This document shows, piece after piece, positions 23,768 through 64,000 of a DNA stretch of 64,000 nucleotides; the stretch's first letter is position 1, and every line of letters starts with the position of its first letter. The stretch comes from Botryllus schlosseri (taxonomy: Eukaryota), in NCBI GenBank assembly GCA_051294905.1, contig CM119373.1, positions 4,156,001 to 4,220,000 on the forward strand, read 5' to 3'. The position numbers and the translations under genes are program-made. The notes beneath the pieces were generated by a model. That model was not told the DNA's origin. It made no database searches and saw only the letters and a program-made list of their open reading frames with translations.

Positions 23768-23783
23768 TCTTTGAAAAGAAATA

Positions 23784-27611: not shown

Positions 27612-27646
27612 ATACAGCTCGCGCTACAGATTTTAGGGCATTCAAC

Positions 27647-28386: not shown

Positions 28387-29371
28387 ACTATTTTGATCCG
28401 AAACAGCCCAAATCGTATAGGGGCGCTTATTTGCAAAAGGAAAAAGAATGGCTTAAAGGACAAGATACTTATACTTTTCATTTTCCGTTACGTAAGAAAT
28501 TTAGGCGTGAACGTGTAGTGGTCTCCGGTATCAATGCTCAGTTTCAGAGCGATTTGATGGATCTGCAATCTATTTCAAAGTACAATAGCGGTTTTCGTTT
28601 TGTGGTGGTCGTGATTGATATTTTTAGCAAATACCTTTGGATGATAGCGATTAAAAATAAAACTGCTTCAAGTATGATTTCTGCTTTCAAACGTGTGTTT
28701 CGTGAACGCGTACCGTTAGTGTTACAAACCGATCAAGGTAGCGAATACACCAATCGCGCTTTCCAGAACTATCTAAAGGAGAACAAAGTTAGATATTTCT
28801 ATACGAGGAGCGAATTAAAATCCTCTGTCGTCGAAAGGGTGATTCGTACTATGAAGGCGTTATGTATCGATTTTTCACAAAAAATAACACGAGGAATTAC
28901 GTGAGCGCTCTCGATGACTTTACTTACTCCTACAACAGGACGTACCATCGTAGCATTGCCATGGCCCCAAACCAAGTGAATTCGTCTAATCAGGAATCGG
29001 TTTGGAGAAGACTTTACGGGTTTCAAGAAGCTAAACAACCCGACCTCGCTGTAGGAGTACCCGTCCGTATATCGAAAATTCGAAATCTTTTTGAGAAAAG
29101 CAGCCTACCCAACTGGCAACGGGAAATTTTCTATATCGCAGACGCCCAAAAGGGAGATCCCCCAATGTATCGCTTACGTGATTACGGTGGTGAAGTCATA
29201 CAGGGTAGATTTTATAGAGAGGAGCTCCAACGCGTAAAAGAACCGCAAACTTGGCGTGTCGAGAAGATTATAAGAAGGCGTAAACGCGCGGGACGAGAAC
29301 AGTATTTAGTGCGCTGGTTGGGATATGGAAGTGGATTCGACAGCTGGGTCGATAAGAAGGATATCGTCTAG
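28374..29371 (+). pseudogene. Retroviral-type (rve) integrase with C-terminal chromodomain, frameshifted at ~28860
   Basis: D-D-E motifs QSDLMD / LQTDQGSEY / SVVERVIRT in ORF 28374. MYRFFT...YNRTYHRSI and chromodomain WRVEKII...YLVRWLGYGSGFDSWV in ORF 28862. Only 2 nt (TT) separate GCG from ATG, i.e. one base is missing. Confidence 0.93.
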
Positions 29372-29534
29372 TCGGAACCTTTATCAGTTTTTGGCGCAAC
29401 TAGTAATCATACTGGTCATCGTATCGTTCTCTCTCTATAATCTTACCATTTCGAATGGGAACAAAGAGCTTTGGATATCACTGCTCTCCTCTTGCGTTGG
29501 TTATATGCTTCCGAATCCCAAGCTCAAAATATGA
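29325..29534 (+). CDS. Small two-helix membrane protein of Polintons (69 aa)
   Basis: Hydrophobic FLAQLVIILVIVSFSLYNL and LWISLLSSCVGYMLPNP, a pattern recalled from other Polintons; its stop overlaps the next ATG (ATGA). Confidence 0.65.
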   Translation: MEVDSTAGSIRRISSSRNLYQFLAQLVIILVIVSFSLYNLTISNGNKELWISLLSSCVGYMLPNPKLKI

Positions 29535-30340
29535 GCTACGTCACGCTATTTTCGAACGCTTCCATGGATAAATTTCCTGATAATACAACAGCGAGTTATT
29601 GCGTTGAACTGGACGTCCCGAAAAACGTGGAAGATACAGAAGTTTCTCTGGCTGAGATCTCCTTCCCTACGGATTATCAAAAACAGTATAGGATCACGAA
29701 GAATAGGTATGGGATCAGATCGCAAAAGAGAACAAGAAAATTTCATTTTAAATTGGGAGAATACGACTCGTTATATGACATGTATAGATCGTTGGAAAGA
29801 GACAATCCTGATGCAAAAGTAACATGTTTCCCTGAAAATCATAGTATGTCTATCTCTATACCTCATAACGAGGTAACCGACAAATTGCGACCAGAGACGG
29901 ACATAGGGCATAGTAGCTTGCTACGCCTCGGAGAATTGTACGGTGCTCTTATGTATAAGGAAACGAAGGAGGAGTTATTGGTGTTTCATTTCCCGAATAC
30001 TAATTGTACATTGTGGAATTATTTTTTCACCGAGGGTATCATTCATTTGAACTTTCGCATGCGACATGATCCGACTATCGATTTCGTTTATGTTCATTGT
30101 AATATCATTGAGCCACAAGAAGATAGCGGTAGGCTCTTACCGTTGTTACGCGTCGTACAGGTAAACGATCGTAAATCATTTTCGAAATATTACACGAAGC
30201 CTTTTTATTTCCCTGTTAATATAAATAGGCTAGAACGTGTCGAAATATCGCTACTTGATGAGAAGGGACAGAAAATACCCTTTCGAAGTTCTCCTTCGAG
30301 TGTTGTATTGCATTTTCGTAGACGGGGAGTTGCATTATGA
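29531..30340 (+). CDS. Minor capsid (penton/PX-like) protein 1, 269 aa
   Basis: YVTLFSNASMDKFPDNT..., VSLAEISFP, FVYVHCNIIEPQ..G..LPLLRVV, YFPV...IPF...VVLHFRR: Polinton single-jelly-roll motifs. Start taken at the ATG at 29531. Confidence 0.88.
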   Translation: MSYVTLFSNASMDKFPDNTTASYCVELDVPKNVEDTEVSLAEISFPTDYQKQYRITKNRYGIRSQKRTRKFHFKLGEYDSLYDMYRSLERDNPDAKVTCFPENHSMSISIPHNEVTDKLRPETDIGHSSLLRLGELYGALMYKETKEELLVFHFPNTNCTLWNYFFTEGIIHLNFRMRHDPTIDFVYVHCNIIEPQEDSGRLLPLLRVVQVNDRKSFSKYYTKPFYFPVNINRLERVEISLLDEKGQKIPFRSSPSSVVLHFRRRGVAL

Positions 30341-31059
30341 AATATATTCATATTACGTCACACGAGTCTGATTTTACTATCGATCTCGCGAAACCGATAG
30401 ATTCTGGTGAATGGGAGATAGGGCTTGCCGAGTTGTCTTTTAAAAATAATTTTCAGCCCACGTTCGAGCCTTACGACGGCTTATTATGGTACGTGAATGA
30501 TGCGGAAGGCGATAATAATTTTTATTATTTCCCGGCTGGTGATTATCATGATAAAATTAGTTTGATGAAGCGTATCAATCACGATCAGAAAAAAGCACGA
30601 TTTATTTGGGTAGATGGTTCTGGTCCGGTCTTGATAGCGGGACCCTACAAGAGTTCCAGCGGTCCGAGACTTTTCATGGATAATAGAAACCCCGTTCTCA
30701 GAGGAGGCGCTCGTTCGGAGGTAGAGCTAGATGGTGGATTACATAGACGAAGAAAAATTCACTTTCAAGGGGAACCTGTGTCCGTGACCAACGTTTTAGT
30801 TTATACGGATGTCATCACACCTCAAATTGTAGGTGATACGAGTGCGCCTCTACTACGCAATATCCGCGTTACGACAGGAATAGATGAATATCAGCATATG
30901 CTATTCAAAAAAATATATTTCTTTCCTCTGAATACGGAGCGAGTAAGCGAGATACGCGTTATGCTTCGTGATGATAAAGGCGAAGCTATAAAGTTTGGGA
31001 ACGCGCCTCTTCATCTCACACTTGCTTTGAGACATCATGAGGAGTCATTATTGCTGTGA
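30337..31059 (+). CDS. Minor capsid (penton/PX-like) protein 2, 240 aa
   Basis: FTIDLAKPI..GEWEIGLAEL, VLVYTDVITPQIVGDTSAPLLRNI, YFFPL...IRVMLRDDKGEAIKF; paralogous to the preceding ORF. Confidence 0.88.
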   Translation: MKYIHITSHESDFTIDLAKPIDSGEWEIGLAELSFKNNFQPTFEPYDGLLWYVNDAEGDNNFYYFPAGDYHDKISLMKRINHDQKKARFIWVDGSGPVLIAGPYKSSSGPRLFMDNRNPVLRGGARSEVELDGGLHRRRKIHFQGEPVSVTNVLVYTDVITPQIVGDTSAPLLRNIRVTTGIDEYQHMLFKKIYFFPLNTERVSEIRVMLRDDKGEAIKFGNAPLHLTLALRHHEESLLL

Positions 31060-31408
31060 TCGGGAGGCGTTCAGAAACTATTATCACCAACAGAGCGGTG
31101 GTGATATCAATTTTTTTCGGGGTAAAGTGCAGAGAGGTCATGGACTTGGAAACTTATTTCGTTCGTTCGGAAGAAGCGTTATGCCCCTAATTTCGAAAGG
31201 TGCAAAATCACTCGGGAAGCGTCTACTACATACCGGTGCGCAAGTAGCCTCTGATGTTCTTAATGGAGAGAATGTCGGTGATAGTCTTAAAATACGCGGC
31301 AAAGAAGCCGCTGGGAACGCTCTCGATTCTTTACTGAGAAAAAGAAAAATGCCAAGACGGGGTCGTAAAATCGCGAAAAAGAGACGTCGCAAAGATATTT
31401 TCGATTAA
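31037..31408 (+). CDS. Conserved Polinton core/membrane-active protein (cupiennin- or adenovirus pVI-like), 123 aa
   Basis: YYHQQSGG...QRGHGLGNLFRSFGRSVMPLISKGAKSLGK, an amphipathic helix after QxGxG motifs; basic C-terminal tail. Function is inference. Confidence 0.75.
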   Translation: MRSHYCCDREAFRNYYHQQSGGDINFFRGKVQRGHGLGNLFRSFGRSVMPLISKGAKSLGKRLLHTGAQVASDVLNGENVGDSLKIRGKEAAGNALDSLLRKRKMPRRGRKIAKKRRRKDIFD

Positions 31409-31457
31409 ATATATATTGCACGGCGATAAGCATCATTTGTTACTTGAGACTTGATAG

Positions 31458-32735
31458 ATGGCGGAGTTAATTCATGTACAGTCCCCGGAGGGGGTACATC
31501 CCTCATTGGATTTATTTCACATTCCCGCGACACAGACTAGCGTTGAAAAGAAAAGAATCATCAAGATAGCGCCGATTTCGAACAACTCTAGTGTGATAAC
31601 ATTCCGCTTTGAAGGCTCAGAAGACTTTAACGATTTGAGCGAGAGCTATTTCTTATTTCATTTACAATTAAAGAAAGATGGCGAAGCAATCGGACCCGAC
31701 GATGATGTTGGAGTTGTAAATAATATCTTGGATTCCTTGATTTCTCAACTACAAATTAAAGTCGCTAACGAAACTTTGAAACAAGATATAAAAGTACAGT
31801 GTTATTCGTCCTATCTGCACAATTTATTCGCTCCGCTTGACGTGCAAAGTACCACACTGAGGGCCTCAGGATGGAGAAAAGATACTTTAGGAGAAATGAA
31901 TACGATTGGTGGAACTAACGCCTCGGCTAACAAAGGATATTACAACAGGAGTAAAGCCTATAAGGATGATAACGTGGTGGAAATACGTGCAAAAATCCAT
32001 CACGGACTATGTCTGCAAGACCGCTACATCCTACATGACGTGCCTCTCGAGTTTGAGCTTACCTTGAATCCGAAAAGCTTTTTCATGATGGGAGATGCTG
32101 GCGGTCAATTCACCTTAACGAAAAAGGAATTACAGTTATGTAGCGTACGAGTCAGCGACGATGTGAAGACAGCGATGATGGTGAATGCCCAGGCGAAATA
32201 TCCGTATATCGACATGAAATTGATCACCCGAACATTTGCGGCTGCTACGACGCAGATAGATATCGGGAATCTATATAGCGGGACTCTACCTTCTCGCCTA
32301 ATCATCGGAATGGTAGCTACGAAAGCCTTTCAAGGAGATGTTACGAAAAATCCTTATAATTTCATACACAATAATATGCAACGACTCGAACTGAAACTGA
32401 ACGGATTTCTGATTCCGGAGGGAGGTTATGAGCTAGATTTCGATAAGGGTCATTACACGGAGCTTTACCATAACCGGATTGAGGGTACGGGTGCAATGGA
32501 GAGAAACACAGGACTCCTAACACCTGAAGAGTTCGCTAGTGGTTTCTGTCTACTGGTTTATAATTTGCGCCCTGATGATTTGGATGATTGCTTTGACTTA
32601 CAAAAGAGTGGTGCCTTAAGTTTACGGATCACATTTCCTGCTGGCGGGCTAACAGCGGAAACTACTTTGCTCTGTTTCATGGAATTCCAGAAGCTATTGC
32701 AAATCAGTAGCAGTCGTAAAGTGACCGTGCTATGA
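31458..32735 (+). CDS. Major capsid protein (double jelly-roll, PY/hexon-like), 425 aa
   Basis: LIH..S.E.....LDLFHIPATQTSVE N-terminus; VNNILDSLISQL; LPSRLIIGMV...AFQGD..KNPYNF; typical size and position before the protease. Confidence 0.92.
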   Translation: MAELIHVQSPEGVHPSLDLFHIPATQTSVEKKRIIKIAPISNNSSVITFRFEGSEDFNDLSESYFLFHLQLKKDGEAIGPDDDVGVVNNILDSLISQLQIKVANETLKQDIKVQCYSSYLHNLFAPLDVQSTTLRASGWRKDTLGEMNTIGGTNASANKGYYNRSKAYKDDNVVEIRAKIHHGLCLQDRYILHDVPLEFELTLNPKSFFMMGDAGGQFTLTKKELQLCSVRVSDDVKTAMMVNAQAKYPYIDMKLITRTFAAATTQIDIGNLYSGTLPSRLIIGMVATKAFQGDVTKNPYNFIHNNMQRLELKLNGFLIPEGGYELDFDKGHYTELYHNRIEGTGAMERNTGLLTPEEFASGFCLLVYNLRPDDLDDCFDLQKSGALSLRITFPAGGLTAETTLLCFMEFQKLLQISSSRKVTVL

Positions 32736-33187
32736 ACGGGGATGAAATAGACCAAATATTGTGGTGCTGCGAGTCAACAAAACATATTTTCCTTGGCACA
32801 TTTCCTATCGATCGACTGCCGAGGCGACCCCCTCCTCCTTATGCTATCGTGATCAATTATGACGAAGCTCGAAAAATCGGAAGTCACTGGATATGCATTT
32901 ACGCGGATGAGGATGAGACACATTTTCACGATAGTTTTGGCTTAATGCCACTGAAATACGAGATTGCCTGCTTTATAGAACCAGAAAATTATACCTGCTC
33001 TATAAAGCGTCTGCAGCACAAACGTTCCAGAGCTTGCGGTCATCATTGTCTAAGCTTTATCGTCCATAAGGCGCGCGGATGGAGTACGGAACGTTATTTA
33101 AATTCCTTCGGTGAAGATCATCGCAAGAATGATTCGATCGTGCGACGCTTCGTCAAGGAGCTGAAGCAAGAATATGAAATTGTGTAA
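32732..33187 (+). CDS. Adenain-like cysteine (maturation) protease, 151 aa
   Basis: IVINYD...GSHW (His), HDSFG (Asp), LQ...ACGHHC (Gln, Cys); AATAAA at ~33199. Confidence 0.93.
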   Translation: MNGDEIDQILWCCESTKHIFLGTFPIDRLPRRPPPPYAIVINYDEARKIGSHWICIYADEDETHFHDSFGLMPLKYEIACFIEPENYTCSIKRLQHKRSRACGHHCLSFIVHKARGWSTERYLNSFGEDHRKNDSIVRRFVKELKQEYEIV

Positions 33188-33574
33188 ATGTATATGCGAA
33201 TAAAATCAATAGTTTCAAAGTTTGCTTAGTACGTTTAAGGGCGATATTCGCTACGTTCATTATAGCAATCATCTCAAAGTAGTAGACTCTAAATCAGCAG
33301 TAGCGACTTGCTTTCGGTTAGGTGATAGTGGCTACATATTACCATTATCTAGCAAGAACCAGGAATTTGTATTGAGTGACTTCGCTCCTACAGTAAACGC
33401 AGCTTACATTACGGCGGTACTGAACATCGAGTAATAAGTGGGACTATGCAGGCTACCCTTAATACGAATTTGCATTTTGCTGGTACAATCTATGCTATAG
33501 TTGAGCGACTTTGATACGACCTCGGCACACTTCTTTGATATAGCTGCGCAAAGATGTAGCCTTGAACGCTGGCT

Positions 33575-36500
33575 TGCCTTGTCATTATATGCTTGTAACT
33601 AGTTCCAGGCTTGCGGTGCTAGTCTTCTTGGCTGCATGAAATAGGATGTTTCAGCTTAAAACTCAACGCATTAGCATGCCGAATTTGTAACCATGGCGAG
33701 ATTCGAGTATTAAGCGAGGCTAGATAGTCTACCCTTGACAGAGAACTTGCATATACATTCGAATTTATGCGACTTCGGCTATATTGCCGGTTAACATTAT
33801 AGCCGTGCACAGAACTCATTATTACGTTATTAGGTATTTAAATGATGCGATATAGGGGAAATCTCGGTGTAATTCAATCTGCGCGCATTATCCATGTATG
33901 CTCCAATGCGTTTTGCGGCTTTAGTATAGGTATTGGATCTAATATATTCTATAAAACATGTACGTTGCTATATATTTATCTTAATCCGAAGTGCATTGCT
34001 GCATCGAAAAATTATAGCTATATGCGGTACGCTGTCGATTTTTCAATATTAGTCAAGAAATGAAATAGCCCACCTTCAGTGTTGCGTAATCTGCCTTGTC
34101 ATTATATGCTTGTAACTAGTTCCAGGCTTGCGGTGCTAGTCTTCTTGGCTGTGTGAAATAGGATGTTTCAGCTTAAAACTCAACGCATTAGCATGCCTAA
34201 TTTATAACCACAGCGAGATTCGAGTAATAACCGAGCCTAGATAGTCTACCTTTAACAGAAAACTTGCATATACATTCGAATTTATGCGACTTCGGCTATA
34301 TTGTCGGTTAACATTATAGCCGTGCACAGAACTCATTATTACGTTATTAGGTATTTAAATGATGCGATATAGGGGAAATCTCGGTGTAATTCAATCTGCG
34401 CGCATTATCCATGTATGCTCCAATGCGTTTTGCGGCTTTAGTATAGGTATTGGATCTAATATATTCTATAAAACATGTACGTTGCTATATATTTATCTTA
34501 ATCCGAAGTGCATTGCTGCATCGAAAAAATTATAGCTATATGCGGTACGCTGTCGATTTTTCAATATTAGTCAAGAAATGAAATAGCCCACCTTCAGTGT
34601 TGCGTAATCTGCCTTGTCACTATATGCTTGTTCCGGGCTTGCTTGCGGTACTAGTCTTCTTGGCTGCGTGAAATAGGATGTTTCAGCTTAAAACTCAACG
34701 CATTAGCATGCCTAATTTATAACCACAGCGAGATTCGAGTAATAACCGAGCCTAGATAGTCTACCTTTAACAGAAAACTTGCATATACATTGGAATTTGT
34801 GCGACTTCGGCTATATTGTCGGTTAACATTATAGCCGTGCACAGAACTCATTATTACGTTATTAGGTATTTAAATGATGCGATATAGGGGAAATCTCGCT
34901 GTAATTCAATCTGTGCTCATTATCCATGTATGCTCCAATGCGTTTTGCGGCTTTAGTATAGGTATTGGATCTAATATATTCTATAAAACATCTACGTTGC
35001 TATATATTATATATCTTAATCCTAAGTGCATTGCTGCATTGAAAAATTATAGCTATATGCGGTACGCTGTCGATTTTTCAGTATACTCAAGAAATGAAAT
35101 AGCTCATCTTCAGTGTTGCGTAATCTGCCTTGTCACTATATGCTTGTTCCGGGCTTGCTTGCGGTACTAGTCTTCTTGGCTGCGCGAAATAGGATGTTTC
35201 AGCTTAAAACTCAACGCATTAGCATGCCTAATTTATAACCACAGCGAGATTCGAGTAATAACCGAGCCTAGATAGTCTACCTTTAACAGAAAACTTGCAT
35301 ATACATTCGAATTTGTGCGACTTCGGCTATATTGTCGGTTAACATTATAGCCGTGCACAGAACTCATTATTACGTTATTAGGTATTTAAATGATGCGGTA
35401 TAGGGGAAATCTCGCTGTAATTCAATCTGTGCGCATTATCCATGTATGCTCCAATGCGTTTTGCGGCTTTAGTATAGGTATTGGATCTAATATATTCTAT
35501 AAAACATGTACGTTGCTATATATTTATCTTAATCCGAAGTGCATTGCTGCATCGAAAAATTATAGCTATATGCGGTACGCTGTCGATTTTTCAATATTAG
35601 TCAAGAAATGAAATAGCCCACCTTCAGTGTTTCGTAATCTGCCTTGTCATTATATGCTTGTTCCGGCCTTGCTTGCGGTGCTAGTCTTCTTGGCTGCGTG
35701 AAATAGGATGTTTCAGCTTAAAACTCAACGCATTAGCATGCCTAATTTATAACCACAGCGAGATTCGAGTAATAACCGAGCCTAGATAGTCTACCTTTAA
35801 CAGAAAACTTGCATATACATTCGAATTTGTGCGACTTCGGCTATATTGTCGGTTAACATTATAGCCGTGCACAGAACTCATTATTACGTTATTAGCTATT
35901 TAAATGATGCGATATAGGGGAAATCTCGCTGTAATTCAATCTGTGCGCATTATCCATGTATGCTCCAATGCGTTTTGCGGCTTTAGTATAGGTATTGGAT
36001 CTAATATATTCTATAAAACATCTACGTTGCTATATATTATATATCTTAATCCTAAGTGCATTGCTGCATTGAAAAATTATAGCTATATGCGGTACGCTGT
36101 CGATTTTTCAGTATACTCAAGAAATGAAATAGCCCACCTTCAGTGTTGCGTAATCTGCCTTGTCACTATATGCTTGTTCCGGGCTTGCTTGCGGTACTAG
36201 TCTTCTTGGCTGCGCGAAATAGGATGTTTCAGCTTAAAACTCAACGCATTAGAATGCCTAATTTATAACCACAGCGAGATTCGAGTAATAACCGAGCCTA
36301 GATAGTCTACCTTTAACAGAAAACTTGCATATACATTCGAATTTGTGCGACTTCGGCTATATTGTCGGTTAACATTATAGCCGTGCACAGAACTCATTAT
36401 TACGTTATTAGGTATTTAAATGATGCGGTATAGGGGAAATCTCGCTGTAATTCAATCTGTGCGCATTATCCATGTATGCTCCAATGCGTTTTGCGGCTTT

Positions 36501-37436
36501 AGTATAGGTATTGGATCTAATATATTCTATAAAACATGTACGTTGCTATATATTTATCTTAATCCGAAGTGCATTGCTGCATCGAAAAATTATAGCTATA
36601 TGCGGTTCGCTGTCGATTTTTCAATATTAGTCAAGAAATGAAATAGCCCACCTTCAGTGTTGCGTAATCTGCCTTGTCATTATATGCTTGTTCCGGCCTT
36701 GCTTGCGGTGCTAGTCTTCTTGGCTGCGTGAAATAGGATGTTTCAGCTTAAAACTCAACGCATTAGCATGCCTAATTTATAACCACAGCGAGATTCGAGT
36801 AATAACCGAGCCTAGATAGTCTACCTTTAACAGAAAACTTGCATATACATTCGAATTTGTGCGACTTCGGCTATATTGTCGGTTAACATTATAGCCGTGC
36901 ACAGAACTCATTATTACGTTATTAGCTATTTAAATGATGCGATATAGGGGAAATCTCGGTGTAATTCAATCTGCGCCCATTATCCATGTATGCTCCAATG
37001 CGTTTGCGGCTTTAGTATAGGTATTGGATCTAATATATTCTATAAAACATCTACGTTGCTATATATTATATATCTTAATCCGAAGTGCATTGCTGCATTG
37101 AAAAATTATAGCTATATGCGGTACGCTGTCGATTTTTCAGTATAGTCAAGAAATGAAATAGCCCACCTTCAGTGTTGCGTAATCTGCTTTGTCACTATAT
37201 GCTTGTTCCGGGCTTGCTTGCGGTACTAGTCTTCTTGGCTGCGTGAAATAGGATGTTTCAGCTTAAAACTCAACGCATTAGCATGCCTAATTTATAACCA
37301 CAGCGAGATTCGAGTAATAACCGAGCCTAGATAGTCTACCTTTAACAGAAAACTTGCATATACATTCGAATTTGTGCGACTTCGGCTATATTGCCGGTTA
37401 ACATTATAGCCACGCACAGAACTCATTATTACGTTA
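33575..37436. repeat. Tandem array of ~515-bp units (~7.5 copies) inside the Polinton
   Basis: Anchor ATGATGCG recurs at 33842, 34359, 34874, 35390, 35904, 36420 and 36934; near-identical units in two alternating variants. Confidence 0.97.
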
Positions 37437-38261
37437 GCTATTGGAGAAATCTCAACGTAAATCAATCTGCGTTCACAATTCGCGTAAGCTAATGCTGCAT
37501 CGAGAAATTATAGCTACATTTAGTTTAAATTGGCACGAAAATACATTGATCTTACCTTATGCCTGCGATGCCTGCATCCCTGCGCACATGGCAATACTTG
37601 TAATAGAAATGTGAAGTTTTCAGAATGCGAATTGCTTTACGTCGGAACTAAACATTCTAATTCGTAACGCCAGCGCGGCGTTTTCTTGGAAACGCAACTT
37701 TATTTAGAATGTTCTAATTCACTTTGTCGATGTGGCGCAACTTTTTTGGAATCGTAAGCAACTGTATTCGTGGCACATTTACACGCGTCAATTTCTTGGA
37801 ATAGTATTCAGCAATATGCGCGTGAGCTTTCGCGTCATTGTAGACATTTATGGTGGCGATATCTGCATTATCAAGTTGCATTCGCAGAATTCCTCAAAAT
37901 CATTGACTAATTAATGATGACACAGGTGTTATAAGTGCACACGAACATAGTCTTACATTTATGTGTTATTACTCGAAAAAGGTGTTGTCTCGGAATTTAA
38001 GAGAGAATCGGCGGTTATATTCTCAAAACAGCTCAATACGGCTAGTTTGCTCAATAGCCTGGTGGTGAGCGATGTGAAATTATACCCAACCAAACCAGGT
38101 TCGATTCTAGCTTAGGTAAGTTTTGACGTGGCAATGAGTGACATAGGTGTAGCAATCGACATCGCGCGGGTTGATGATGTGCAGCGTATAGATGCGGCAA
38201 TCAATGCGGTGATGATGTGGCAATGGATGATGTGGCACTATAGACGTGGCAATGGGTGTGG

Positions 38262-38366
38262 TATAGGTGCGGCAATGGGCGGATGATGTGGCAATGTAGG
38301 CGTGGCAATTAAGGCGACGTGGCGAAATTTGATTGGCCTGCACGAAATCCAGGTACCTACACTACT
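38262..38366 (-). repeat. Right terminal inverted repeat
   Basis: Reverse complement of 22811-22915; followed by the TSD GACGTG. Confidence 0.95.
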
Positions 38367-50824: not shown

Positions 50825-51938
50825 GGTATGACATGGCATGGAATGGGGAATTTCCATACTCCCAACCCGCCCAAATCGTTCCATATCATACTTCACGATT
50901 TTCCATATCTTAGCAACATTCTCCCATTCTATATTTGATACTTTTTCCATACTTTCGAAACTTTCCCAACCTCTCAAGCGATATTCTATTTCTGATGCAT
51001 GGAAATGTTCCGGCGTTAATATTATAATTAATTAGGATGAAATGATCCATTTAAACAGCCGTGATGCGCCATCTCCAGTTATTTTGTATCATATGTGGTC
51101 AGCGATGCAGGTTGTCTTATCACGGAGGACAGAACGTAAATTATAGATAGCATACACAATGGATTATTTGAAAATCGCAACAGAATCTCATGAAATGTAG
51201 GTCTAGTGTAGTAACATTTTTCTAGCAGTAGCATCATCTACATAATACATAAAACAAAGGTATTTTAAAGTTAGAAGAGTTGCTCCCAATCTTTTTTTCT
51301 TCATTCACCACAGCCTGAAATCTTTATTTCTAACCTATAAAATTGCTCCCCCATTAAAATTTTGGAAGAAGTAGCTTTGTCAAGACTTGCTATTGGCGAC
51401 AGTTAAGACCCTCATACTTGAACAGCAAGTAATACAATTAATGAGCACGGAACTACTAACCAACCGTTCATGCAGTGTTGCGCCCCCGTAAAATGTATTA
51501 ATTAAGCCGACAGAAAATAGGAAGGACTTTAAATGTTTTGAAATGCAGCGAGGTAGCATCAGTTTACATGGTTAAATGCCGAATATTATCTTATTGTAAC
51601 GAACCAGGAGATACTCAATCACACCATTTCGCACACAAATGAATAGTAACCTATATTCGAAAGATCGAGCACCGCTGTCCAGTCGATTCTCCCAAATGGA
51701 GATTCTGATAATACGTAATGGTGAATTGCAAATGAGCTGAGAAATATTAGAGATGCCATTGGCATTTCATAAAGACATTTAATAGATGAGGTTAGCAATA
51801 TGAAGAATTTATTTTTGAATGTGTCTATTCCCAACCAGAAACCCCTAAATTCCCCAGCGGTGGAAACCACTGCATTGGAATGTATCTTAGCATATAATTT
51901 CACATCGTTACAATCATTTTGCGACATCGGATCTCATG

Positions 51939-52105
51939 AGTAGTGAGGTTTGGTCAAATATACGCAGACCAATCCCAGAAGGCCACGTCGCCTTAATTGC
52001 CACGCCTACATTGCCACATCATCCGCCCATTGCCGCACCTATAGCACGCCTATTGCCACATCATCCACCCATTGCTATATCATCGCTGCATTGATTTCCG
52101 CATCT
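51939..52105 (+). mobile_element. Terminus (TIR) of a second Polinton-related element; the other end is not in the window
   Basis: Starts AGTAGTG; 51982-52043 is identical to 22854-22915, at the same +43 offset from the terminus. Confidence 0.85.
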
Positions 52106-54976
52106 TGATACTTTTCTCAGATATTGTATTATGTGTATTTAGGACTAATATCATCCGTCCATATTTTTTAAACTTGATTTTATGTGTACAAGTTACGGTT
52201 TCTGCAGTTTCCACATTTTACGACTTAAGATTGCTGCGTCAAAACTTACCTTGGCTAGAATCGACAGATTTTCTATTATGTGTATTTAGGACTATGTATT
52301 TAAATTCCTATTCAGATTATACATAAATGCGAAAACTATGATGTCTATGTAAGGTTATATTCTCCGGATAATATTATTAATATCAAAATTCTACACATCA
52401 TCACTAATTACTTAATATAAAATGTGATTTTGAGCGCTGCGACTTGATAATATGAACCCCTACGCTTCTGATGCATGATTTTTTGTGATAAGGACCTAGG
52501 TAACATTCAGAGTCTGCAACGATTGTTTGGATATACATTATAGCAATACCCCACTAAACTATAGGCGGTTATATTACTCTATTGCTCAGAGATAACTCAT
52601 CCGTCCATATTTTTAAACTTGATTTTATGTATACAAGTTACTGTCTCTGCAGCCTCCACATTTTACGACTTATTTTCATTAGACGCAGGCAAGCGATTCT
52701 CCAGTTCGGAGCTACGGAAACAAATCACTCGCATGTGCGCGTTCCGAATAGTCTTGTAGAATTTTCTAAAGTCGTAACAGCTTAGTAGCATATACGCGAA
52801 TCCCAAGGTGAAAATAATCGAATGAACTATAGCCGTAGGCGTGCGATTCGCAGGGCTTTATTTATACAAACTCTATCGATGCCTGTACGCGAACCCCAGC
52901 GTTAAAACGATTAGGTCTAATTAACACGTTCCGAAGCCGAAAATTTAGTCAACATCATTGAGATAGCCATGATTTGAAGATGGTGATCGAGTGTGACAAT
53001 AGCACTCGCCAAGGTTAGACAAACATAACCTTAAACTACTCTCTACTTCACAAAATATAAAGTTATAAAAGTAAGCAGATTTTGTCGATATTGCTTTGTG
53101 ATGATTTTGATGTTGTTCCATACCGATTGGGAAGATAGGACTCCTAATTCCTTAACTAACTACATAATCCCTAGTAACGTAGTCAGACGCATAACGGAAT
53201 TTACGCAAATCGATATTGCTCTGCGATAATTTTGACCACTATGTTTTGATAATAACTTGCTTCCGAGAAATAGATAACATTCATTATACGTTAGATGATA
53301 CTTTTCCTTTATATTCTATTATGTGTATTTAGGGCTAATGCGACATCACTATGTTGGCGACAGACCTGATTTGAACACGCTAATTTTGCAAATTAAACTT
53401 ATCACCCAACACGAACACTCAATGAAGAGCACCCCGGAGCACCCACATAAATGCTCCACAATTTGTGACGTATAATATACTGAGCATATAATAAGCTGAC
53501 AAAACTGATACTTGAGTACTCCGAAATGTACAAGTACTTTACCTTTACACGACGTTTTTGTAAAATGAATACTAATGGTACGCGAATGATCATAGACTAA
53601 GCTTGCTTTCAGAGTTGGAAACTAAATGCATATGAAAATTTAACTATGTTTTCCCCTCACGCATCAGATGTAGGCCTACTCAAGTGTTTATGAGGCGGCG
53701 AATAGTTCGAAGGTTGTTGGTATGCAAGGACGTCACATAGAATTGTGGAGTTTTCTGTAAACTATATTCCAGTGATCTATTTTCAATCACTATACTTTTA
53801 TTAATCTAAACTAAGTACTGTTAGTAGGCAAATCCTAGAAAAGTATCCTCTGATAAAAGCAGGAGTAATTCGTTATCTCTGAAATAAATAGATAGCGCGC
53901 CATATGAGCGGTGTTACGATGACTGACAAATACTTTGAATTAATGCATAGAAGTAGCGATTTCGAACTACGTAAAAAGTTAGTCGAGCTCACGCATTTTC
54001 CATTAAGTTTCGAAGATGCGTTTTATAATTGCTCTAGGTGTGAAATAGACATCGCACTCCTGCGGGGAAACAACATGAATTCAGTCTTCACACCGCAGAA
54101 ACACAGCCGCTTGGTTAACATCACAAACCGCAATTGAACTCAAGATTGCCATACATGGAATCGCTGTTAACGATGTCTGACTGCGGCGTTTCGACGAGTA
54201 ACGAATTCTCGTATTTAGTATTGATTGTGACACATAGTCAAAACAGCGACAGTTTTCACAACCCGGTACATACATTGAACCAACTGATGTAAGGTGAAAC
54301 ATTACGTTCGCAGCAAAAAAAAAAAAGTTTGCAGGGTATGACCACCACCAACATATAGAGTAGTGAGTGAGTAATTAAACTACATACCCTGATTTTACTA
54401 TATTCCGAGATCCGGATCACGATTCAAGTCTACCTGAGAATCCGAACTACCCTGTGAAGTTGATATATCAAGTTGTGAACCGTGAAAGGGTTGTAATCTC
54501 GGTGAAATAGTGTGCGACACATTTTTCCATAAGTCGAATGCATGTCGGTTCATACTAAGACCATTAGGAATTTGCACAATGACAGGTTATTGAAACCGAT
54601 GCCAAAACTCAGTATAATAGACTGATATTGACCGCGTGTATGTTTGACATATATGCAGCATCTTGGATCGGCGGTGGAGCACTGAATGGCACTGCAGAAG
54701 TCATCTACTCTCCTAAGCTTGGACTGATCTGGGCTATTGCGCCACTGTGTTACGGGTTTAGTGTTCAAGTACTTTATCTTTACACGACGTTTTTTGTAAA
54801 ATGAATACTAATTTTATTGAAAAAATAAAAAATAAAAAAGAGCGAAAAATTACATTATATCCCGGAACGCAACAAGAAAAATCGTATGAATTTGTAAACT
54901 ACTTGTTCATGACATAATAATAATTCTACGTATACTTTTTCACATTTTATAACACTTTAAGTAATACTTAACAGTT

Positions 54977-57900
54977 TCAGTTTTAAATAAAATACGGAAT
55001 ATAAACTAATCGAAAAATTCGGTAACCAATTTCGCGTAGGCTATGCATGCATACAAATGAGGAAAGTTACATCAACGCGTGTTAAAGTAGCTGTATCGAG
55101 TTATCGAATGATTTTCTCCTTACATCAAAACAACTAGAATGTATAACTAAATTAAAAAACGTATCTAAATGAGCTCCAGGGCATTGTGATTATGCTGCAT
55201 ACCAAATTTCATCACACATTTCATGATGGAACAACTTTAAAACTAACGCAGTTCTATAGCAACTTTTGCCTAAATCTGTTTTCGGTAGCGTGTACATATA
55301 CATAGTCAGATTTAATAACAGAATTATCATGCTAATATGTGACTCCTCACCTTGAAACTTGGTACGTAGTTGTAGGACATTGTGATTATGCAGCATACCA
55401 AATTTCCTCACGCATTTCATAATGGAACAACTTTAAAACTAACGCGGTTCTACATCGACTTTTTGCGTACATCTGTTTTGCGTGGGGGGCGTATAGCACG
55501 TACCTATACATAGTCAACTTTAACAACGGAATTACCATGCTTAACATTGAATCCCAACTCGAAACTTGATACGTAGTTGTAGGACATTATGGTAATGCAC
55601 CATGCTAAATTTCATCACACATCTAATGATGGAACACCTTTAAAACTAACGCAGTCGAATACCGACTTTTACGCATATCTGTTTTGCGTGAACATAGCAT
55701 ATACCTATACATAGTCAATTTTAATAGCAGAATTACCGTGTTAAACATTGAATTCCCACCTTGAAAGTGGGTACGCGGTTATAGGAGATTATAACAATGC
55801 ACCATACCAAATCCCATCACACATTTCATGATGGAACAACTTTAAAACTAACGCGGCTCTACATCGACTTTTTGCGTACATCTGTTTTGTGGGAGCGTAT
55901 AGCACGTAGCCTACCCATACATAGCCAACTTTAATAACGGAATTACCATGCTTAACATTGAATCCCAACTCGAAACTTGATACGTAGTTATAGAACATTA
56001 TGGCAATTCACCATGCTAAATTTCATCACACATCTAATGATGGAACACCTTTGAAACTATCGCAGTCGAATACCAACTTTTACGCATATCTGTTTTCCGT
56101 GAACATAGCATATACCCATACATAGTCAATTTTAATAACAGAATTAGCATGCTAAACATTAAATTCTCACCTTGAACGTTGAAACGCGGTTGTGGGACAT
56201 AATAACAATGCACCATACCAAATTTCGTCAGACATTTCATGATGTAACACCTTTAAAACCAACGCAGTTCTATACAGACTTTTGGCTAAATCTGTTTTTC
56301 CGTAGCGTAGCACGTACCTATACATAGTCAACTTTAATAACGGATTTAGCATGTTAATAATCGACTTAGTTTTAAATAAAATACGGAATATAAACTAATC
56401 GAAAAATTCGGTAACCAATTTCGCGTAGGCTATGCATGCATACAAATGAGGAAAGTTACATCAACGCGTGTTAAAGTAGCTGTATCGAGTTATCGAATGA
56501 TTTTCTCCTTACATCAAAACAACTAGAATGTATAACTAAATTAAAAAACGTATCTAAATGAGCTCCAGGGCATTGTGATTATGCTGCATGCCAAATTTCA
56601 TCACACATTTCATGATGGAACAACTTTAAAACTAACGCAGTTCTATAGCAACTTTTGCCTAAATCTGTTTTCGGTAGCGTGTACATATACATAGTCAGAT
56701 TTAATAACAGAATTATCATGCTAATATGTGACTCCTCACCTTGAAACTTGGTACGTAGTTGTAGGACATTGTGATTATGCAGCATACCAAATTTCTTCAC
56801 GCATTTCATAATGGAACAACTTTAAAACTAACGCGGTTCTACATCGACTTTTTGCGTACATCTGTTTTGCGTGGGGGCGTATAGCACGTACCTATACATA
56901 GTCAACTTTAACAACGGAATTACCATGCTTAACATTGAATCCCAACTCGAAACTTGATACGTAGTTGTAGGACATTCTGGCAATGCACCATGCTAAATTT
57001 CATCACACATCTAATGATGGAACACCTTTAAAACTAACGCAGTCGAATACCGACTTTTACGCATATCTGTTTTGCGTGAACATAGCATATACCTATACAT
57101 AGTCAATTTTAATAGCAGAATTACCGTGTTAAACATTGAATTCCCACCTTGAAAGTTGGTACGCGGTTATAGGAGATTATAACAATGCACCATACCAAAT
57201 CCCATCACACATTTCATGATGGAACAACTTTATAACTAACGCGGCTCTACATCGACTTTTTGCGTACATCTGTTTTGTGGGAGCGTATAGCACGTAGCCT
57301 ACCCATACATAACCATCTTTAATAACGGAATTACCATGCTTAACATTGAATCCCAACTCGATACTTGATACGTAGTTATAGGACATTATGGCAATTCACC
57401 ATGCTAAATTTCATCACACATCTAATGATGGAACACCTTTGAAACTATCGCAGTCGAATACCAACTTTTACGCATATCTGTTTTTCGTGAACATAGCATA
57501 TACCCATACATAGTCAATTTTAATAACAGAATTAGCATGCTAAACATTAAATTCTCACCTTGAACGTTGATACGTGGTTGTAGGACATAATAACAATGCA
57601 CCATACCAAATTTCATCAGACATTTCATGATGTAACACCTTTAAAACCAACGCAGTTCTATACAGACTTTTGGCTAAATCTGTTTTTCCGTAGCGTAGCA
57701 CGTACCTATACATAGTCAACTTTAATAACGGATTTAGCATGTTAATAATCGACTCCCCACCTTGAAACTCGGTACGCAGTTGTAAGACATTATGACAATG
57801 CACCATGTCAAATTTTGTTACGCATTTCATGATTGAACAACTTTAAAACTAACGCAGTTCCATACCGACTTTTGCGAGTGCGTAGCACGTACCTATAAGC

Positions 57901-58130
57901 ATACTCAACTTTCATAGCGGAATTACCGAGCTAAACATTGAATGCGCAACTTGAAGATTGGTTCACAGGTGTAGGGCAGTATGACAATGGAACACATCAA
58001 ATTTCATCACACATTTCATGATGGAACACCTTTAAAACTAACGCAGTTCTATACCAACTTCGCGTGAATCTGTTTGCGGGAGCGTAGCACGTACCTATGC
58101 GTGATCAACTTTAGTGATGGAATTACATAT
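54977..58130. repeat. Satellite of ~200-bp diverged monomers with a ~1389-bp higher-order unit
   Basis: The AAATTTCATCACACAT-like anchor recurs at 55204, 55400, 55607, 55809, 56018, 56220...; near-identical blocks are offset by 1388-1389 bp (ORFs 55190/56579, 56034/57422). Confidence 0.93.
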
Positions 58131-61100
58131 GTAATTAAGTTTCAACACTTTTACAATGATTCGTCTTGCTTCCTATAACACCCCACTCGAGAAAATGCGT
58201 CGTAGGATATAGATGAAACTAGCACCACTCATCAAGACCGCTGAAAACAGTACATTTCAACATTTAGTAGCAGTAAATTTCTAGTAAAGTACAAGACGTG
58301 ATGATTTCCGAGTGAGTTAAAAAGTAAGTATTGCAGGTATAGTTTACCTGAAAACCGAATACTCTGAAATAGAAGTAGATGCAGTGTAAATAGTTAATCA
58401 CTTGATTAAGTTTAGTGCAAGCAGATAAAACCTATACTTGAGTAGTACAAAATGCACGAGTACTTCGCTATCGCCTCCCTCCACGTAATAAGTGTCTACG
58501 GTTTAAGACTGCTTTTACCGATACTCGTCGGTTTCAGTTTTAGATAGAATTCGGAAACCAAATAATTTCATAAACATAAGCTAATTTAATGAATTTACTC
58601 GAATGTACTATGCCGCGCTGATAAGATTAATTATAATATACTTATCATGTTACAGCGATTTTTCTAGCGTAGAAATCTTTAAAATGTAGTAAGCAGACCA
58701 AATGAAGATATTCGTTGAGCTGAATAAACATAAAAAATACTCTAGACTACTTTATCGGTACTTTACAGTTACAGTTTTAGATAAAATTTGTCCCTTTCAC
58801 CTATAATTACAACTCCTCGCTATCTAAACATGTTTAGAATATATTATTTGCGATGATACGAACCCGTGAAGTACTCAAGTTGCTTTTCGTAGGATATAGA
58901 TGAAACTGACAACACTCACCAAGACCAGTGATCCACTGAAAAAAGTACATTGTAGCAGTAAAGTCCTACTAAAGTACAAGAAGTAATGATATCCCAGTTA
59001 GTTAAAAAGTAAGTATTGAGGTATAGTTTGCTCGAAAAAGCGAAAAACTCTGAAATAGAAGTAGATGCAGTGTAAATAGGTAATCACTTCATTAAGTATA
59101 GCGCAAGCAGGCCAAACCTATACTTAAGTACTGCAAATGTACAAGTACTTCGCTATGTTCTCCCTCCACGTAAAAAGTGACTAGGTTTTAGAGTACTTTA
59201 TCGGTACTCGACAGTTTCAGTGTTAGATAAAATTTGGTAAGACTTTAAATTTTAAAGTAGTTTGAGCTTACGTTTGTATCACCCTGACAAGTAACATTAT
59301 CAGACATGAAAATGATACTATCACCGAATATAGAAGTTAACACGCGTCAATGTGCTTCGGAATTCACGAGAAATTGCTTACTAAGAGAAGTATATTGTTG
59401 TATACACAATAGTGGAGAGAATATTTAAAATGTAGTAAGCAGGCCGATGGGTATTCGTTTAGTTGTATAGACATAAAAAACATTCCCGCGCGCGTCTTAG
59501 TATTAGGTGGTAGGGTTAGGAAGTGTTTTGTTTAAGAGCGCGCGGGAATGTTTTTTATGTCTATACAACTAAACGAATACCCATCGGCCTGCTTACTACA
59601 TTTTAAATATTCTCTCCACTATTGTGTATACAACAATATACTTCTCTTAGTAAGCAATTTCTCGTGAATTCCGAAGCACATTGACGCGTGTTAACTTCTA
59701 TATTCGGTGATAGTATCATTTTCATGTCTGATAATGTTACTTGTCAGGGTGATACAAACGTAAGCTCAAACTACTTTAAAATTTAAAGTCTTACCAAATT
59801 TTATCTAACACTGAAACTGTCGAGTACCGATAAAGTACTCTAAAACCTAGTCACTTTTTACGTGGAGGGAGAACATAGCGAAGTACTTGTACATTTGCAG
59901 TACTTAAGTATAGGTTTGGCCTGCTTGCGCTATACTTAATGAAGTGATTACCTATTTACACTGCATCTACTTCTATTTCAGAGTTTTTCGCTTTTTCGAG
60001 CAAACTATACCTCAATACTTACTTTTTAACTAACTGGGATATCATTACTTCTTGTACTTTAGTAGGACTTTACTGCTACAATGTACTTTTTTCAGTGGAT
60101 CACTGGTCTTGGTGAGTGTTGTCAGTTTCATCTATATCCTACGAAAAGCAACTTGAGTACTTCACGGGTTCGTATCATCGCAAATAATATATTCTAAACA
60201 TGTTTAGATAGCGAGGAGTTGTAATTATAGGTGAAAGGGACAAATTTTATCTAAAACTGTAACTGTAAAGTACCGATAAAGTAGTCTAGAGTATTTTTTA
60301 TGTTTATTCAGCTCAACGAATATCTTCATTTGGTCTGCTTACTACATTTTAAAGATTTCTACGCTAGAAAAATCGCTGTAACATGATAAGTATATTATAA
60401 TTAATCTTATCAGCGCGGCATAGTACATTCGAGTAAATTCATTAAATTAGCTTATGTTTATGAAATTATTTGGTTTCCGAATTCTATCTAAAACTGAAAC
60501 CGACGAGTATCGGTAAAAGCAGTCTTAAACCGTAGACACTTATTACGTGGAGGGAGGCGATAGCGAAGTACTCGTGCATTTTGTACTACTCAAGTATAGG
60601 TTTTATCTGCTTGCACTAAACTTAATCAAGTGATTAACTATTTACACTGCATCTACTTCTATTTCAGAGTATTCGGTTTTCAGGTAAACTATACCTGCAA
60701 TACTTACTTTTTAACTCACTCGGAAATCATCACGTCTTGTACTTTACTAGAAATTTACTGCTACTAAATGTTGAAATGTACTGTTTTCAGCGGTCTTGAT
60801 GAGTGGTGCTAGTTTCATCTATATCCTACGACGCATTTTCTCGAGTGGGGTGTTATAGGAAGCAAGACGAATCATTGTAAAAGTGTTGAAACTTAATTAC
60901 ATATGTAATTCCATCACTAAAGTTGATCACGCATAGGTACGTGCTACGCTCCCGCAAACAGATTCACGCGAAGTTGGTATAGAACTGCGTTAGTTTTAAA
61001 GGTGTTCCATCATGAAATGTGTGATGAAATTTGATGTGTTCCATTGTCATACTGCCCTACACCTGTGAACCAATCTTCAAGTTGCGCATTCAATGTTTAG

Positions 61101-61165
61101 CTCGGTAATTCCGCTATGAAAGTTGAGTATGCATATAGGTACGTGCTACGCACTCGCAAAAGTCG
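57866..61165. repeat. Near-perfect palindrome: arms 57866-59493 and 59538-61165, truncated by the gap
   Basis: Paired coordinates sum to 119031 at both the tip and the distal end (no net indel); one mismatch noticed near the distal end. Confidence 0.95.
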
Positions 61166-61265
61166 NNNNNNNNNNNNNNNNNNNNNNNNNNNNNNNNNNN
61201 NNNNNNNNNNNNNNNNNNNNNNNNNNNNNNNNNNNNNNNNNNNNNNNNNNNNNNNNNNNNNNNNN
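61166..61265. other. Assembly gap (~100 N)
   Basis: Run of N. Confidence 0.99.
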
Positions 61266-64000
61266 GGGCGTATAGCACGTACCTATACATAGTCAACTTT
61301 AACAACGGAATTACCATGCTTAACATTGAATCCCAACTCGAAACTTGATACGTAGTTGTAGGACATTATGGTAATGCACCATGCTAAATTTCATCACACA
61401 TCTAATGATGGAACACCTTTAAAACTAACGCAGTCGAATACCGACTTTTACGCATATCTGTTTTGCGTGAACATAGCATATACCTATACATAGTCAATTT
61501 TAATAGCAGAATTACCGTGTTAAACATTGAATTCCCACCTTGAAAGTGGGTACGCGGTTATAGGAGATTATAACAATGCACCATACCAAATCCCATCACA
61601 CATTTCATGATGGAACAACTTTAAAACTAACGCGGCTCTACATCGACTTTTTGCGTACATCTGTTTTGTGGGAGCGTATAGCACGTAGCCTACCCATACA
61701 TAGCCAACTTTAATAACGGAATTACCATGCTTAACATTGAATCCCAACTCGAAACTTGATACGTAGTTATAGAACATTATGGCAATTCACCATGCTAAAT
61801 TTCATCACACATCTAATGATGGAACACCTTTGAAACTATCGCAGTCGAATACCAACTTTTACGCATATCTGTTTTCCGTGAACATAGCATATACCCATAC
61901 ATAGTCAATTTTAATAACAGAATTAGCATGCTAAACATTAAATTCTCACCTTGAACGTTGAAACGCGGTTGTGGGACATAATAACAATGCACCATACCAA
62001 ATTTCGTCAGACATTTCATGATGTAACACCTTTAAAACCAACGCAGTTCTATACAGACTTTTGGCTAAATCTGTTTTTCCGTAGCGTAGCACGTACCTAT
62101 ACATAGTCAACTTTAATAACGGATTTAGCATGTTAATAATCGACTTAGTTTTAAATAAAATACGGAATATAAACTAATCGAAAAATTCGGTAACCAATTT
62201 CGCGTAGGCTATGCATGCATACAAATGAGGAAAGTTACATCAACGCGTGTTAAAGTAGCTGTATCGAGTTATCGAATGATTTTCTCCTTACATCAAAACA
62301 ACTAGAATGTATAACTAAATTAAAAAACGTATCTAAATGAGCTCCAGGGCATTGTGATTATGCTGCATGCCAAATTTCATCACACATTTCATGATGGAAC
62401 AACTTTAAAACTAACGCAGTTCTATAGCAACTTTTGCCTAAATCTGTTTTCGGTAGCGTGTACATATACATAGTCAGATTTAATAACAGAATTATCATGC
62501 TAATATGTGACTCCTCACCTTGAAACTTGGTACGTAGTTGTAGGACATTGTGATTATGCAGCATACCAAATTTCTTCACGCATTTCATAATGGAACAACT
62601 TTAAAACTAACGCGGTTCTACATCGACTTTTTGCGTACATCTGTTTTGCGTGGGGGCGTATAGCACGTACCTATACATAGTCAACTTTAACAACGGAATT
62701 ACCATGCTTAACATTGAATCCCAACTCGAAACTTGATACGTAGTTGTAGGACATTCTGGCAATGCACCATGCTAAATTTCATCACACATCTAATGATGGA
62801 ACACCTTTAAAACTAACGCAGTCGAATACCGACTTTTACGCATATCTGTTTTGCGTGAACATAGCATATACCTATACATAGTCAATTTTAATAGCAGAAT
62901 TACCGTGTTAAACATTGAATTCCCACCTTGAAAGTTGGTACGCGGTTATAGGAGATTATAACAATGCACCATACCAAATCCCATCACACATTTCATGATG
63001 GAACAACTTTATAACTAACGCGGCTCTACATCGACTTTTTGCGTACATCTGTTTTGTGGGAGCGTATAGCACGTAGCCTACCCATACATAACCATCTTTA
63101 ATAACGGAATTACCATGCTTAACATTGAATCCCAACTCGATACTTGATACGTAGTTATAGGACATTATGGCAATTCACCATGCTAAATTTCATCACACAT
63201 CTAATGATGGAACACCTTTGAAACTATCGCAGTCGAATACCAACTTTTACGCATATCTGTTTTTCGTGAACATAGCATATACCCATACATAGTCAATTTT
63301 AATAACAGAATTAGCATGCTAAACATTAAATTCTCACCTTGAACGTTGATACGTGGTTGTAGGACATAATAACAATGCACCATACCAAATTTCATCAGAC
63401 ATTTCATGATGTAACACCTTTAAAACCAACGCAGTTCTATACAGACTTTTGGCTAAATCTGTTTTTCCGTAGCGTAGCACGTACCTATACATAGTCAACT
63501 TTAATAACGGATTTAGCATGTTAATAATCGACTCCCCACCTTGAAACTCGGTACGCAGTTGTAAGACATTATGACAATGCACCATGTCAAATTTTGTTAC
63601 GCATTTCATGATTGAACAACTTTAAAACTAACGCAGTTCCATACCGACTTTTGCGAGTGCGTAGCACGTACCTATAAGCATACTCAACTTTCATAGCGGA
63701 ATTACCGAGCTAAACATTGAATGCGCAACTTGAAGATTGGTTCACAGGTGTAGGGCAGTATGACAATGGAACACATCAAATTTCATCACACATTTCATGA
63801 TGGAACACCTTTAAAACTAACGCAGTTCTATACCAACTTCGCGTGAATCTGTTTGCGGGAGCGTAGCACGTACCTATGCGTGATCAACTTTAGTGATGGA
63901 ATTACATATGTAATTAAGTTTCAACACTTTTACAATGATTCGTCTTGCTTCCTATAACACCCCACTCGAGAAAATGCGTCGTAGGATATAGATGAAACTA
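61266..64000 (+). repeat. Direct copy of 55487-58221 (offset 5779 bp)
   Basis: Identical ORF translations at constant offset (55789/61568, 56579/62358, 57555/63334). Confidence 0.93.

What the first reader, a model, noticed from the sequence alone, without database searches (positions are those of the whole stretch)
51939..64000. Second Polinton-type terminus leading into essentially non-coding repeat DNA
Seen: an AGTAGTG start and a 62-bp TIR core identical to element 1 at the same offset, while the first ~43 bp have diverged. The following 12 kb has no recognisable viral gene, only short duplications, satellite and a palindrome. Inference: a non-autonomous derivative mobilised in trans. The conserved core may be the replication or packaging signal shared across subfamilies. 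Its right end should read ...CACTACT followed by the TSD CTCATG (51933-51938).
Basis: partly seen in the sequence, partly recalled or inferred. Interest (0 to 1): 0.7.

Follow-up and report, generated by a model that had tools for sequence, protein, structure and literature searches.

The report
Gap-broken palindromic Polinton passenger element
This is the real end of a mobile element related to the virus-like Polinton transposon next door, and it most likely opens a gene-less, roughly 15-kb mirror-image passenger element whose far half is cut off by a gap in the assembly.

Summary
The terminus is real: AGTAGTG at 51939, and a 62-bp core identical to both ends of the Polinton at 22811-38366. 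Beyond the TIR it resembles that element's right end, not its left. The '12 kb' is only 7.6 kb of independent sequence. The rest is a 1,628-bp mirror arm running into a 100-N gap, then a 2,735-bp exact copy of 55487-58221, probably contig overlap. There are no viral genes, but one truncated host choline-transporter exon that a related copy elsewhere lacks. The mirror centre (59515.5) lies 7.58 kb from the terminus, so a fully palindromic element would be 15,154 bp (neighbour: 15,556 bp). Best reading (0.62): a helper-dependent fold-back copy of one Polinton end. The neighbour has no recognisable polymerase, so it cannot be the full helper. This scan has noted such palindromes before elsewhere in this genome (21 unchecked notes seen). 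No paper describing the form turned up in five targeted searches.

The parts
51933..51938 (+). Candidate 6-bp target site (CTCATG); partner copy not in window
   Evidence: Sequence; unverified as a TSD
51939..51981 (+). Terminus: (AGT)2G end motif, diverged offsets 8-25, conserved block 51964-51974 with CCAATC, same length as in element 1
   Evidence: end motif as in PMC8097293 section 7
51982..52043 (+). 62-bp TIR core identical to both ends of element 1, start of a 42-bp-period GCCACATCATC repeat
52045..52111 (+). Sub-terminal block closer to element 1's right end than to its left
   Evidence: local score 67 (right) vs 46 (left), shuffle maxima 35 and 28 of 200
52230..52264 (+). Second block matching only element 1's right sub-terminus (38135-38101), 31 of 35
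   Evidence: score 50 vs 20 for the left end, shuffle maxima 29 and 27
52106..54978 (.). AT-rich non-coding body with short dispersed duplications; motif 53493-53539 recurs in the palindrome arm (58419-58465, 59105-59150)
   Evidence: repeated 14-mers 92 vs shuffled mean 0.4
54659..54761 (+). Isolated SLC5A7 (high-affinity choline transporter)-like exon piece, after a TGCAG acceptor, cut at its 3' side by an element-internal repeat
   Evidence: absent from a related copy
54979..57754 (+). 1,389-bp tandem duplication, two copies, 16 differences in 1,388 columns
55178..58126 (+). Satellite of about 202-bp units (14 anchors before the gap, monomers 69-100% alike, 411-bp higher-order pairs)
58200..59480 (+). 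Two older tandem units about 686 bp apart, 81% alike
57866..59493 (+). Left arm of the visible palindrome, ending in a GC clamp
59494..59537 (.). 44-nt centre: 1-nt bulge, 5-bp inner stem, 33-nt loop; axis 59515.5
59538..61165 (-). Right arm, 1,627 of 1,628 identical, truncated by the contig end
61166..61265 (.). Assembly gap, 100 N
61266..64000 (+). Exact direct copy of 55487-58221, probably overlap of the next contig
   Evidence: 0 mismatches to copy 1, 13 to copy 2 over 880 bp
22811..38366 (+). Reference element 1: Polinton with 105-bp perfect TIR, TSD GACGTG on both sides, ATPase, rve+chromo integrase in two frames, DJR-like capsid, protease-like ORF, BIR and Bcl-2 genes, no pPolB found

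Best explanation
51939 is one end of a gene-less, helper-dependent Polinton derivative that is a mirror image of itself about the centre at 59515.5, about 15.15 kb in all. The assembly breaks inside the mirror arm and restarts 4 kb before the centre. Inferred mechanism: a protein-primed Polinton polymerase started at a right-type end and copied inwards. The new strand folded back at a short imperfect inverted repeat beside a GC clamp and was copied back, giving two identical ends. Such a molecule needs only a helper's polymerase and terminal protein, and its integrase (6-bp TSD), possibly also its capsid. Displaced single strands snap back along their whole length, which would keep the arms alike. 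The arm has since gained a satellite, duplications and a host exon piece. Shown: end homology, its right-end type, absence of genes, the mirror, the gap and the duplicate. Inferred: full-length symmetry, right end, TSD, copy-back origin, helper dependence, packaging.
For: The end matches element 1's right end in two blocks beyond the TIR, as expected for a copy of one end. Shared motifs tie the TIR-side body to the hairpin arm: 53493-53539 with 58419-58465 and 59105-59150, and 54965-54993 with 58759-58787. The predicted length of 15,154 bp is close to element 1 (15,556 bp) and inside the 12,723-24,620 bp range of intact vertebrate Mavericks (PMC8097293 section 7). The centre has a bulged 5-bp stem and 33-nt loop, like the 5-bp repeat with 35-bp spacer that primed fold-back duplications in wild-type yeast (PMC10622511 passages), and sits at one of the most GC-rich 12-mers of the arm (58 of 7,081 windows as high). 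Other copies probably exist: an unnamed ENA protein call matches 53904-54002 at 33 of 33 residues and then 54786-54809 at 8 of 8 (expected 1e-06).
Against: Only 1.63 kb of the predicted 7.56-kb right arm is visible, and it ends exactly at a contig end, which is also the pattern of a fold-back library or read artefact. The single arm mismatch lies 33 bp from the contig end and does not discriminate. No right TIR or TSD was seen. The only gene-bearing neighbour lacks pPolB and differs at offsets 8-25, so no helper is identified. Collection scans for the TIR core gave nothing usable: 0 hits in five scans and 1 chance hit in the sixth. Sequence look-ups among this scan's notes found no look-alike for the terminus, the arm or the satellite.
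Confidence: 0.62

Rival explanations
1. An ordinary, non-palindromic non-autonomous Polinton derivative or decayed copy. The mirror is a fold-back artefact (amplification or read chimera) at the end of a contig, and the post-gap contig carries the true continuation.
For: The mirror arm ends exactly at the gap and is 99.9% identical. The post-gap contig repeats 55487-58221 exactly in direct orientation. A short imperfect inverted repeat can prime fold-back in a tube as well as in a cell (inference).
Against: The centre sits at a distance that gives an element of Polinton size and at a GC clamp. By eye the 44-nt centre does not look like a sequencing hairpin adapter (recalled, not computed).
Confidence: 0.2
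2. A real but only partly palindromic element or rearranged locus. The inverted and direct duplications are real local events (satellite-driven or break-induced), and the right end differs from the left.
For: The region has already undergone a 1,389-bp duplication (98.8%) and an older 686-bp one (81%). Fold-back duplications arise at breaks without any virus (PMC10622511 passages).
Against: The direct copy starts exactly at the gap edge and has no mismatch in 2,735 bp, whereas the two true duplications have diverged.
Confidence: 0.11
3. A solitary or truncated Polinton end of about 330 bp, followed by unrelated host repeats (for example a Helentron-type satellite carrier) and an exon of a host gene.
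For: Similarity to element 1 stops at 52264. Short satellites carried by Helentron elements are common in a marine invertebrate (PMC7492417 passages). TIR-only Polinton insertions are reported in C. elegans (10.1101/2024.01.15.575659 passages).
Against: Duplications start right at the TIR edge (52106-52149 with 53296-53339) and chain to the arm. The exon is the only SLC5A7-like piece among 2,197 translated segments of the window, lacks its 3' end, and is skipped in a related copy.
Confidence: 0.07

Closest known systems
Polinton/Maverick elements (PMC8097293, section 7 and passages read; PMC4196379, passages on the racket model)
   Same: (AGT)2 end motif; TIR core shared with a neighbouring element that has a 6-bp TSD, ATPase, integrase, capsid and protease-like genes; predicted size in range
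   Different: No genes; if the reading holds, the inverted repeat is about 7.5 kb per arm against 46-1,447 bp in that survey
AAV snapback genomes (PMC8235507, abstract and passages)
   Same: Self-complementary copy of one genome end, replicated only with helper functions, template switch proposed
   Different: Hairpin-primed parvovirus, transient in virus stocks; here protein-primed type ends and chromosomal integration
Phi29 subgenomic molecules from polymerase template switching (PMC4974454, one passage; the 1998 primary paper not read, their palindromic form recalled)
   Same: Protein-primed replicon, 1-8 kb products mainly from the right end
   Different: Phage, not integrated or inherited
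Foldback-type DNA transposons (FB, Galileo; search listing of PMC4168063 only, the rest recalled)
   Same: Very long inverted repeats with internal tandem repeats, often gene-less
   Different: Depend on cut-and-paste transposases; their ends are not shared with a Polinton
Terminal palindromes of Halocafeteria virophages and PLVs (10.64898/2026.07.28.741278, passages)
   Same: Palindromes in Polinton-related integrated elements, hairpin role proposed
   Different: 52-nt palindromes at the termini of gene-bearing elements, not a central fold of a gene-less one

Membership tests
Polinton/Maverick (autonomous) | 5'-(AGT)2 end motif | tested here: met
   motif from PMC8097293
Polinton/Maverick (autonomous) | TIR at both ends | tested here: inconclusive
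   One end only; CACTACT occurs once in the window, in element 1
Polinton/Maverick (autonomous) | 6-bp TSD | not testable with these tools
Polinton/Maverick (autonomous) | pPolB, integrase, ATPase, protease, capsid genes | tested here: not met
   Longest frame 97 aa; 0 of 42 segments at a Pfam cut-off
Non-autonomous Polinton derivative | Ends shared with a gene-bearing Polinton of the same genome | tested here: met
   62-bp identical core plus two right-end blocks
Non-autonomous Polinton derivative | Several independent insertions | tested here: inconclusive
Non-autonomous Polinton derivative | A helper with polymerase and intact integrase and matching ends | tested here: inconclusive
   Element 1 has no recognisable pPolB and a split integrase; rest of the genome not available
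Whole-element palindrome (form noted by this scan, not a published family) | Near-identical arms about a short centre | tested here: met
   1,627 of 1,628 over the visible part
Whole-element palindrome (form noted by this scan, not a published family) | Arms extend to both termini | not testable with these tools
   Right arm cut by the gap at 61166
Helentron-associated elements (HINE) carrying satellites | subTIR, inner inverted repeat, microsatellite and 3' short palindrome flanking the array | not tested
   Features read in PMC7492417; no dedicated search made

The most novel reading that the evidence does not exclude
An inherited, integrating 'snap-back' satellite of a polintovirus: a gene-less 15-kb hairpin made by copy-back from one end, kept at helper-genome size for packaging, with arms held identical by replication through the hairpin, able to pick up and spread host exon fragments, and with its own terminal subtype pointing to a helper other than the neighbouring element.
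Probability: 0.3. Interest if true: 0.8.

Novelty: new variant of a known kind. Interest (0 to 1): 0.5.

Why it matters
Polinton replication through a folded single strand is a proposed model (PMC4196379 passages). An integrated element that is a full fold-back of one end would be a footprint of that chemistry, and a DNA counterpart of copy-back defective genomes that became heritable. Its size match to gene-bearing elements would bear on whether Polintons package DNA in capsids. Comparing end subtypes (conserved 7, 11 and 62-bp blocks at fixed spacing) narrows down which bases the enzymes read. Practically, such hairpins break assemblies and leave false duplications. This particular copy is incomplete, so it adds a subtype and a prediction, not proof.

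Tried and rejected
No whole genome is held for this window, so no census, right end or empty site could be looked up. No reads were laid, so depth, junctions and the hairpin are unchecked. Empty-site proxy: the left flank 51299-51872 is about 70% like 20384-19605, but that host repeat is a small element with its own 18-bp inverted ends (hAT-like, label recalled) and ends at 51872. The last 66 bp do not align beyond chance (171 of 500 shuffles as good), so the proxy is void. TIR-core patterns: 0 hits in viral contigs, metagenome contigs and the first genome scan; 1 hit (L001) is a low-complexity intergenic stretch between bacterial genes, rejected. Element 1 capsid and ATPase found no related loci in viral contigs. 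Rfam on 9,917 of the 10,166 bases from 51000 to 61165 gave one sub-threshold miRNA match on the hairpin itself (35.8 bits against a cut-off of 100), rejected. ORF 53904-54137 (77 aa): no atlas hit, and its one database relative changes frame content after residue 33, so it is treated as a spurious gene call, useful only as a sign of another DNA copy. A telomere-like loop was considered: only 2 TTAGG in 44 nt, not pursued. A word-index search for long SLC5A7 relatives found none; the HMMER search did (185 at E up to 0.001). Runs X21-X24 with share 0.00 are no evidence either way. Literature: 10 searches; the five aimed at this form listed 16, 20 of 22, 20 of 86, 11 and 28 papers, none with a title or abstract start on whole-element palindromic Polintons. 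The library lacks most subscription papers and Repbase, and no supplements were read.
Full report
1. Observation. Position 51939 begins AGTAGTG, preceded by CTCATG. Against element 1 (22811-38366; 105-bp perfect TIR; GACGTG on both sides) the first 7 bases match, offsets 8-25 match 5 of 18, offsets 26-36 match 10 of 11 (with CCAATC), offsets 37-43 match 1 of 7, and offsets 44-105 are identical to both ends, all without an indel. Element 1 is a Polinton by its genes: A32-type ATPase, rve and chromo domains, a DJR-like capsid by language-model features (score 0.99 to a cluster with PF21738 on 24% of members; recognition value below the tool's threshold) and a protease-like ORF (motif recalled). 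The end motif is the commonest Maverick type (PMC8097293 section 7). The terminus is therefore real.

2. Which end it is. Beyond the TIR, the new terminus follows element 1's right end. Offsets 107-173 score 67 against the right end and 46 against the left. A second block, 52230-52264, matches only the right end (31 of 35; score 50 vs 20; maxima of 200 shuffles 29 and 27). Nothing else in 51939-61165 matches the first 52 kb of the window except one weak 40-50-bp match at E 0.023.

3. What follows. No frame exceeds chance length (97 aa vs shuffled median 104). Of 51 stop-to-stop segments of 45 aa or more, 42 were scanned (7 lay in the second copy of a duplication, 2 others were not sent); none reached a Pfam cut-off. 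The body is a patchwork of short duplications that starts at the TIR edge and shares motifs with the palindrome arm, which argues for one element. It holds an SLC5A7-like exon piece at 54659-54761 (E 2e-07 to human CHT1 residues 59-96). This is the only such piece among 2,197 translated segments of the window, and an internal repeat cuts it off at the 3' side. An unnamed ENA protein call runs 33 of 33 residues along 53904-54002 and then 8 of 8 along 54786-54809: a related copy without the roughly 780-bp block that holds the exon. Then come a 202-bp satellite with a 1,389-bp duplication and two older 686-bp units.

4. The palindrome and the gap. 57866-59493 and 59538-61165 are inverted copies with 1 mismatch in 1,628 bp. 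The right arm stops at a 100-N gap. After the gap, 61266-64000 equals 55487-58221 with no mismatch, and matches the first copy of the 1,389-bp duplication, not the second (0 vs 13 differences). The centre is a 1-nt bulge, a 5-bp stem and a 33-nt loop beside a GC clamp (58 of 7,081 windows as GC-rich). That is the geometry of fold-back priming (PMC10622511 passages). It says how the mirror was made, not whether it was made in a cell or in a library.

5. Best explanation (0.62). If the mirror runs to the end, the element is 15,154 bp, close to element 1's 15,556 bp. Both ends would be right-type ends, as a copy-back from one end predicts. It would move with the polymerase, terminal protein and integrase of a helper. 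Parallels: template-switch products from the right end of phi29 (PMC4974454 passage) and AAV snapback genomes (PMC8235507 passages). Element 1 is not a sufficient helper: no pPolB-like segment was found in its annotated ORFs or in 32 further segments (most of the 515-bp array was covered by one unit only), its integrase is in two frames, and its outer terminus differs. Multi-copy status is suggested by point 3 and: 20 of 24 listed runs from 10 studies hold 0.33-0.80 of the words of 51939-55150, among them seawater metagenomes and runs of 44 and 76 million letters.

6. Against. The right TIR, the TSD and 5.9 kb of the right arm are unseen. A mirror that ends at a contig end is also what a fold-back artefact looks like (rival, 0.20). 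A real but partial rearrangement (0.11) and a solitary end among host repeats (0.07) remain. Six collection scans for the TIR core gave only a chance hit.

7. Earlier notes. Before looking, I gave even odds to a real hairpin. Searches showed 21 distinct AI notes from this genome describing complete palindromes, mostly 13-16 kb, with Polinton ends, several with a 6-bp TSD. They are unchecked and I could not test them genome-wide. They raised my odds, gave me the words 'satellite' and 'snap-back', and pointed me to PMC8097293. Look-ups by sequence found no look-alike for this terminus, arm or satellite. This copy may be a different subtype, or the index may simply miss it. Several notes mention a small gene in a unique centre; this centre is only 44 nt and has none.

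8. Known and new. It is not an autonomous Polinton (gene test failed). It works like a non-autonomous Polinton derivative, and probably like a snap-back defective genome. Five targeted searches listed no paper on whole-element palindromic Polintons. In the texts I searched, 'palindrom' occurs 0 times in PMC8097293 and in 10.1101/2024.01.15.575659, once in a legend in 10.64898/2026.10.13.758929, and refers to 52-nt terminal palindromes in 10.64898/2026.07.28.741278. PMC3014272 reports no non-autonomous Polintons in anole (passages). PMC6431247 and PMC11161782 were read as passages for background. Subscription papers, Repbase and supplements were not seen. Verdict: new variant of a known kind, interest 0.5. 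The architecture is unusual, but this copy is incomplete and its key feature is unverified.

Noticed in passing
window 22811-38366: Complete Polinton insertion (TSD GACGTG) with two anti-apoptosis genes (BIR E 1e-18, Bcl-2 E 1e-20), no recognisable pPolB, integrase in two frames, and a 515-bp tandem array at about 33575-37440. Its capsid has only one close database relative (77%).
   Followed up: partly
window 54659-54761: Single SLC5A7-like exon piece inside the element; 8 of 10 long homologues align from the base at the acceptor AG.
   Followed up: yes
window 54359-54365: A second AGTAGTG, shortly after a poly-A run at about 54316-54327, not followed by the TIR core; it lies in the block that the related copy lacks.
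   Followed up: no
window 51299-51872 and 19600-20442: Two diverged copies of a small host element with 18-bp inverted ends (hAT-like, label recalled); element 2 sits 66 bp from the end of one.
   Followed up: partly
window 47492-48190 and 12015-12681: Two related pentraxin/laminin-G-like coding stretches, 70% alike over 175 bp.
   Followed up: no
window 49691-49763 (-): tRNA-Arg(TCT) or tRNA-derived repeat.
   Followed up: no
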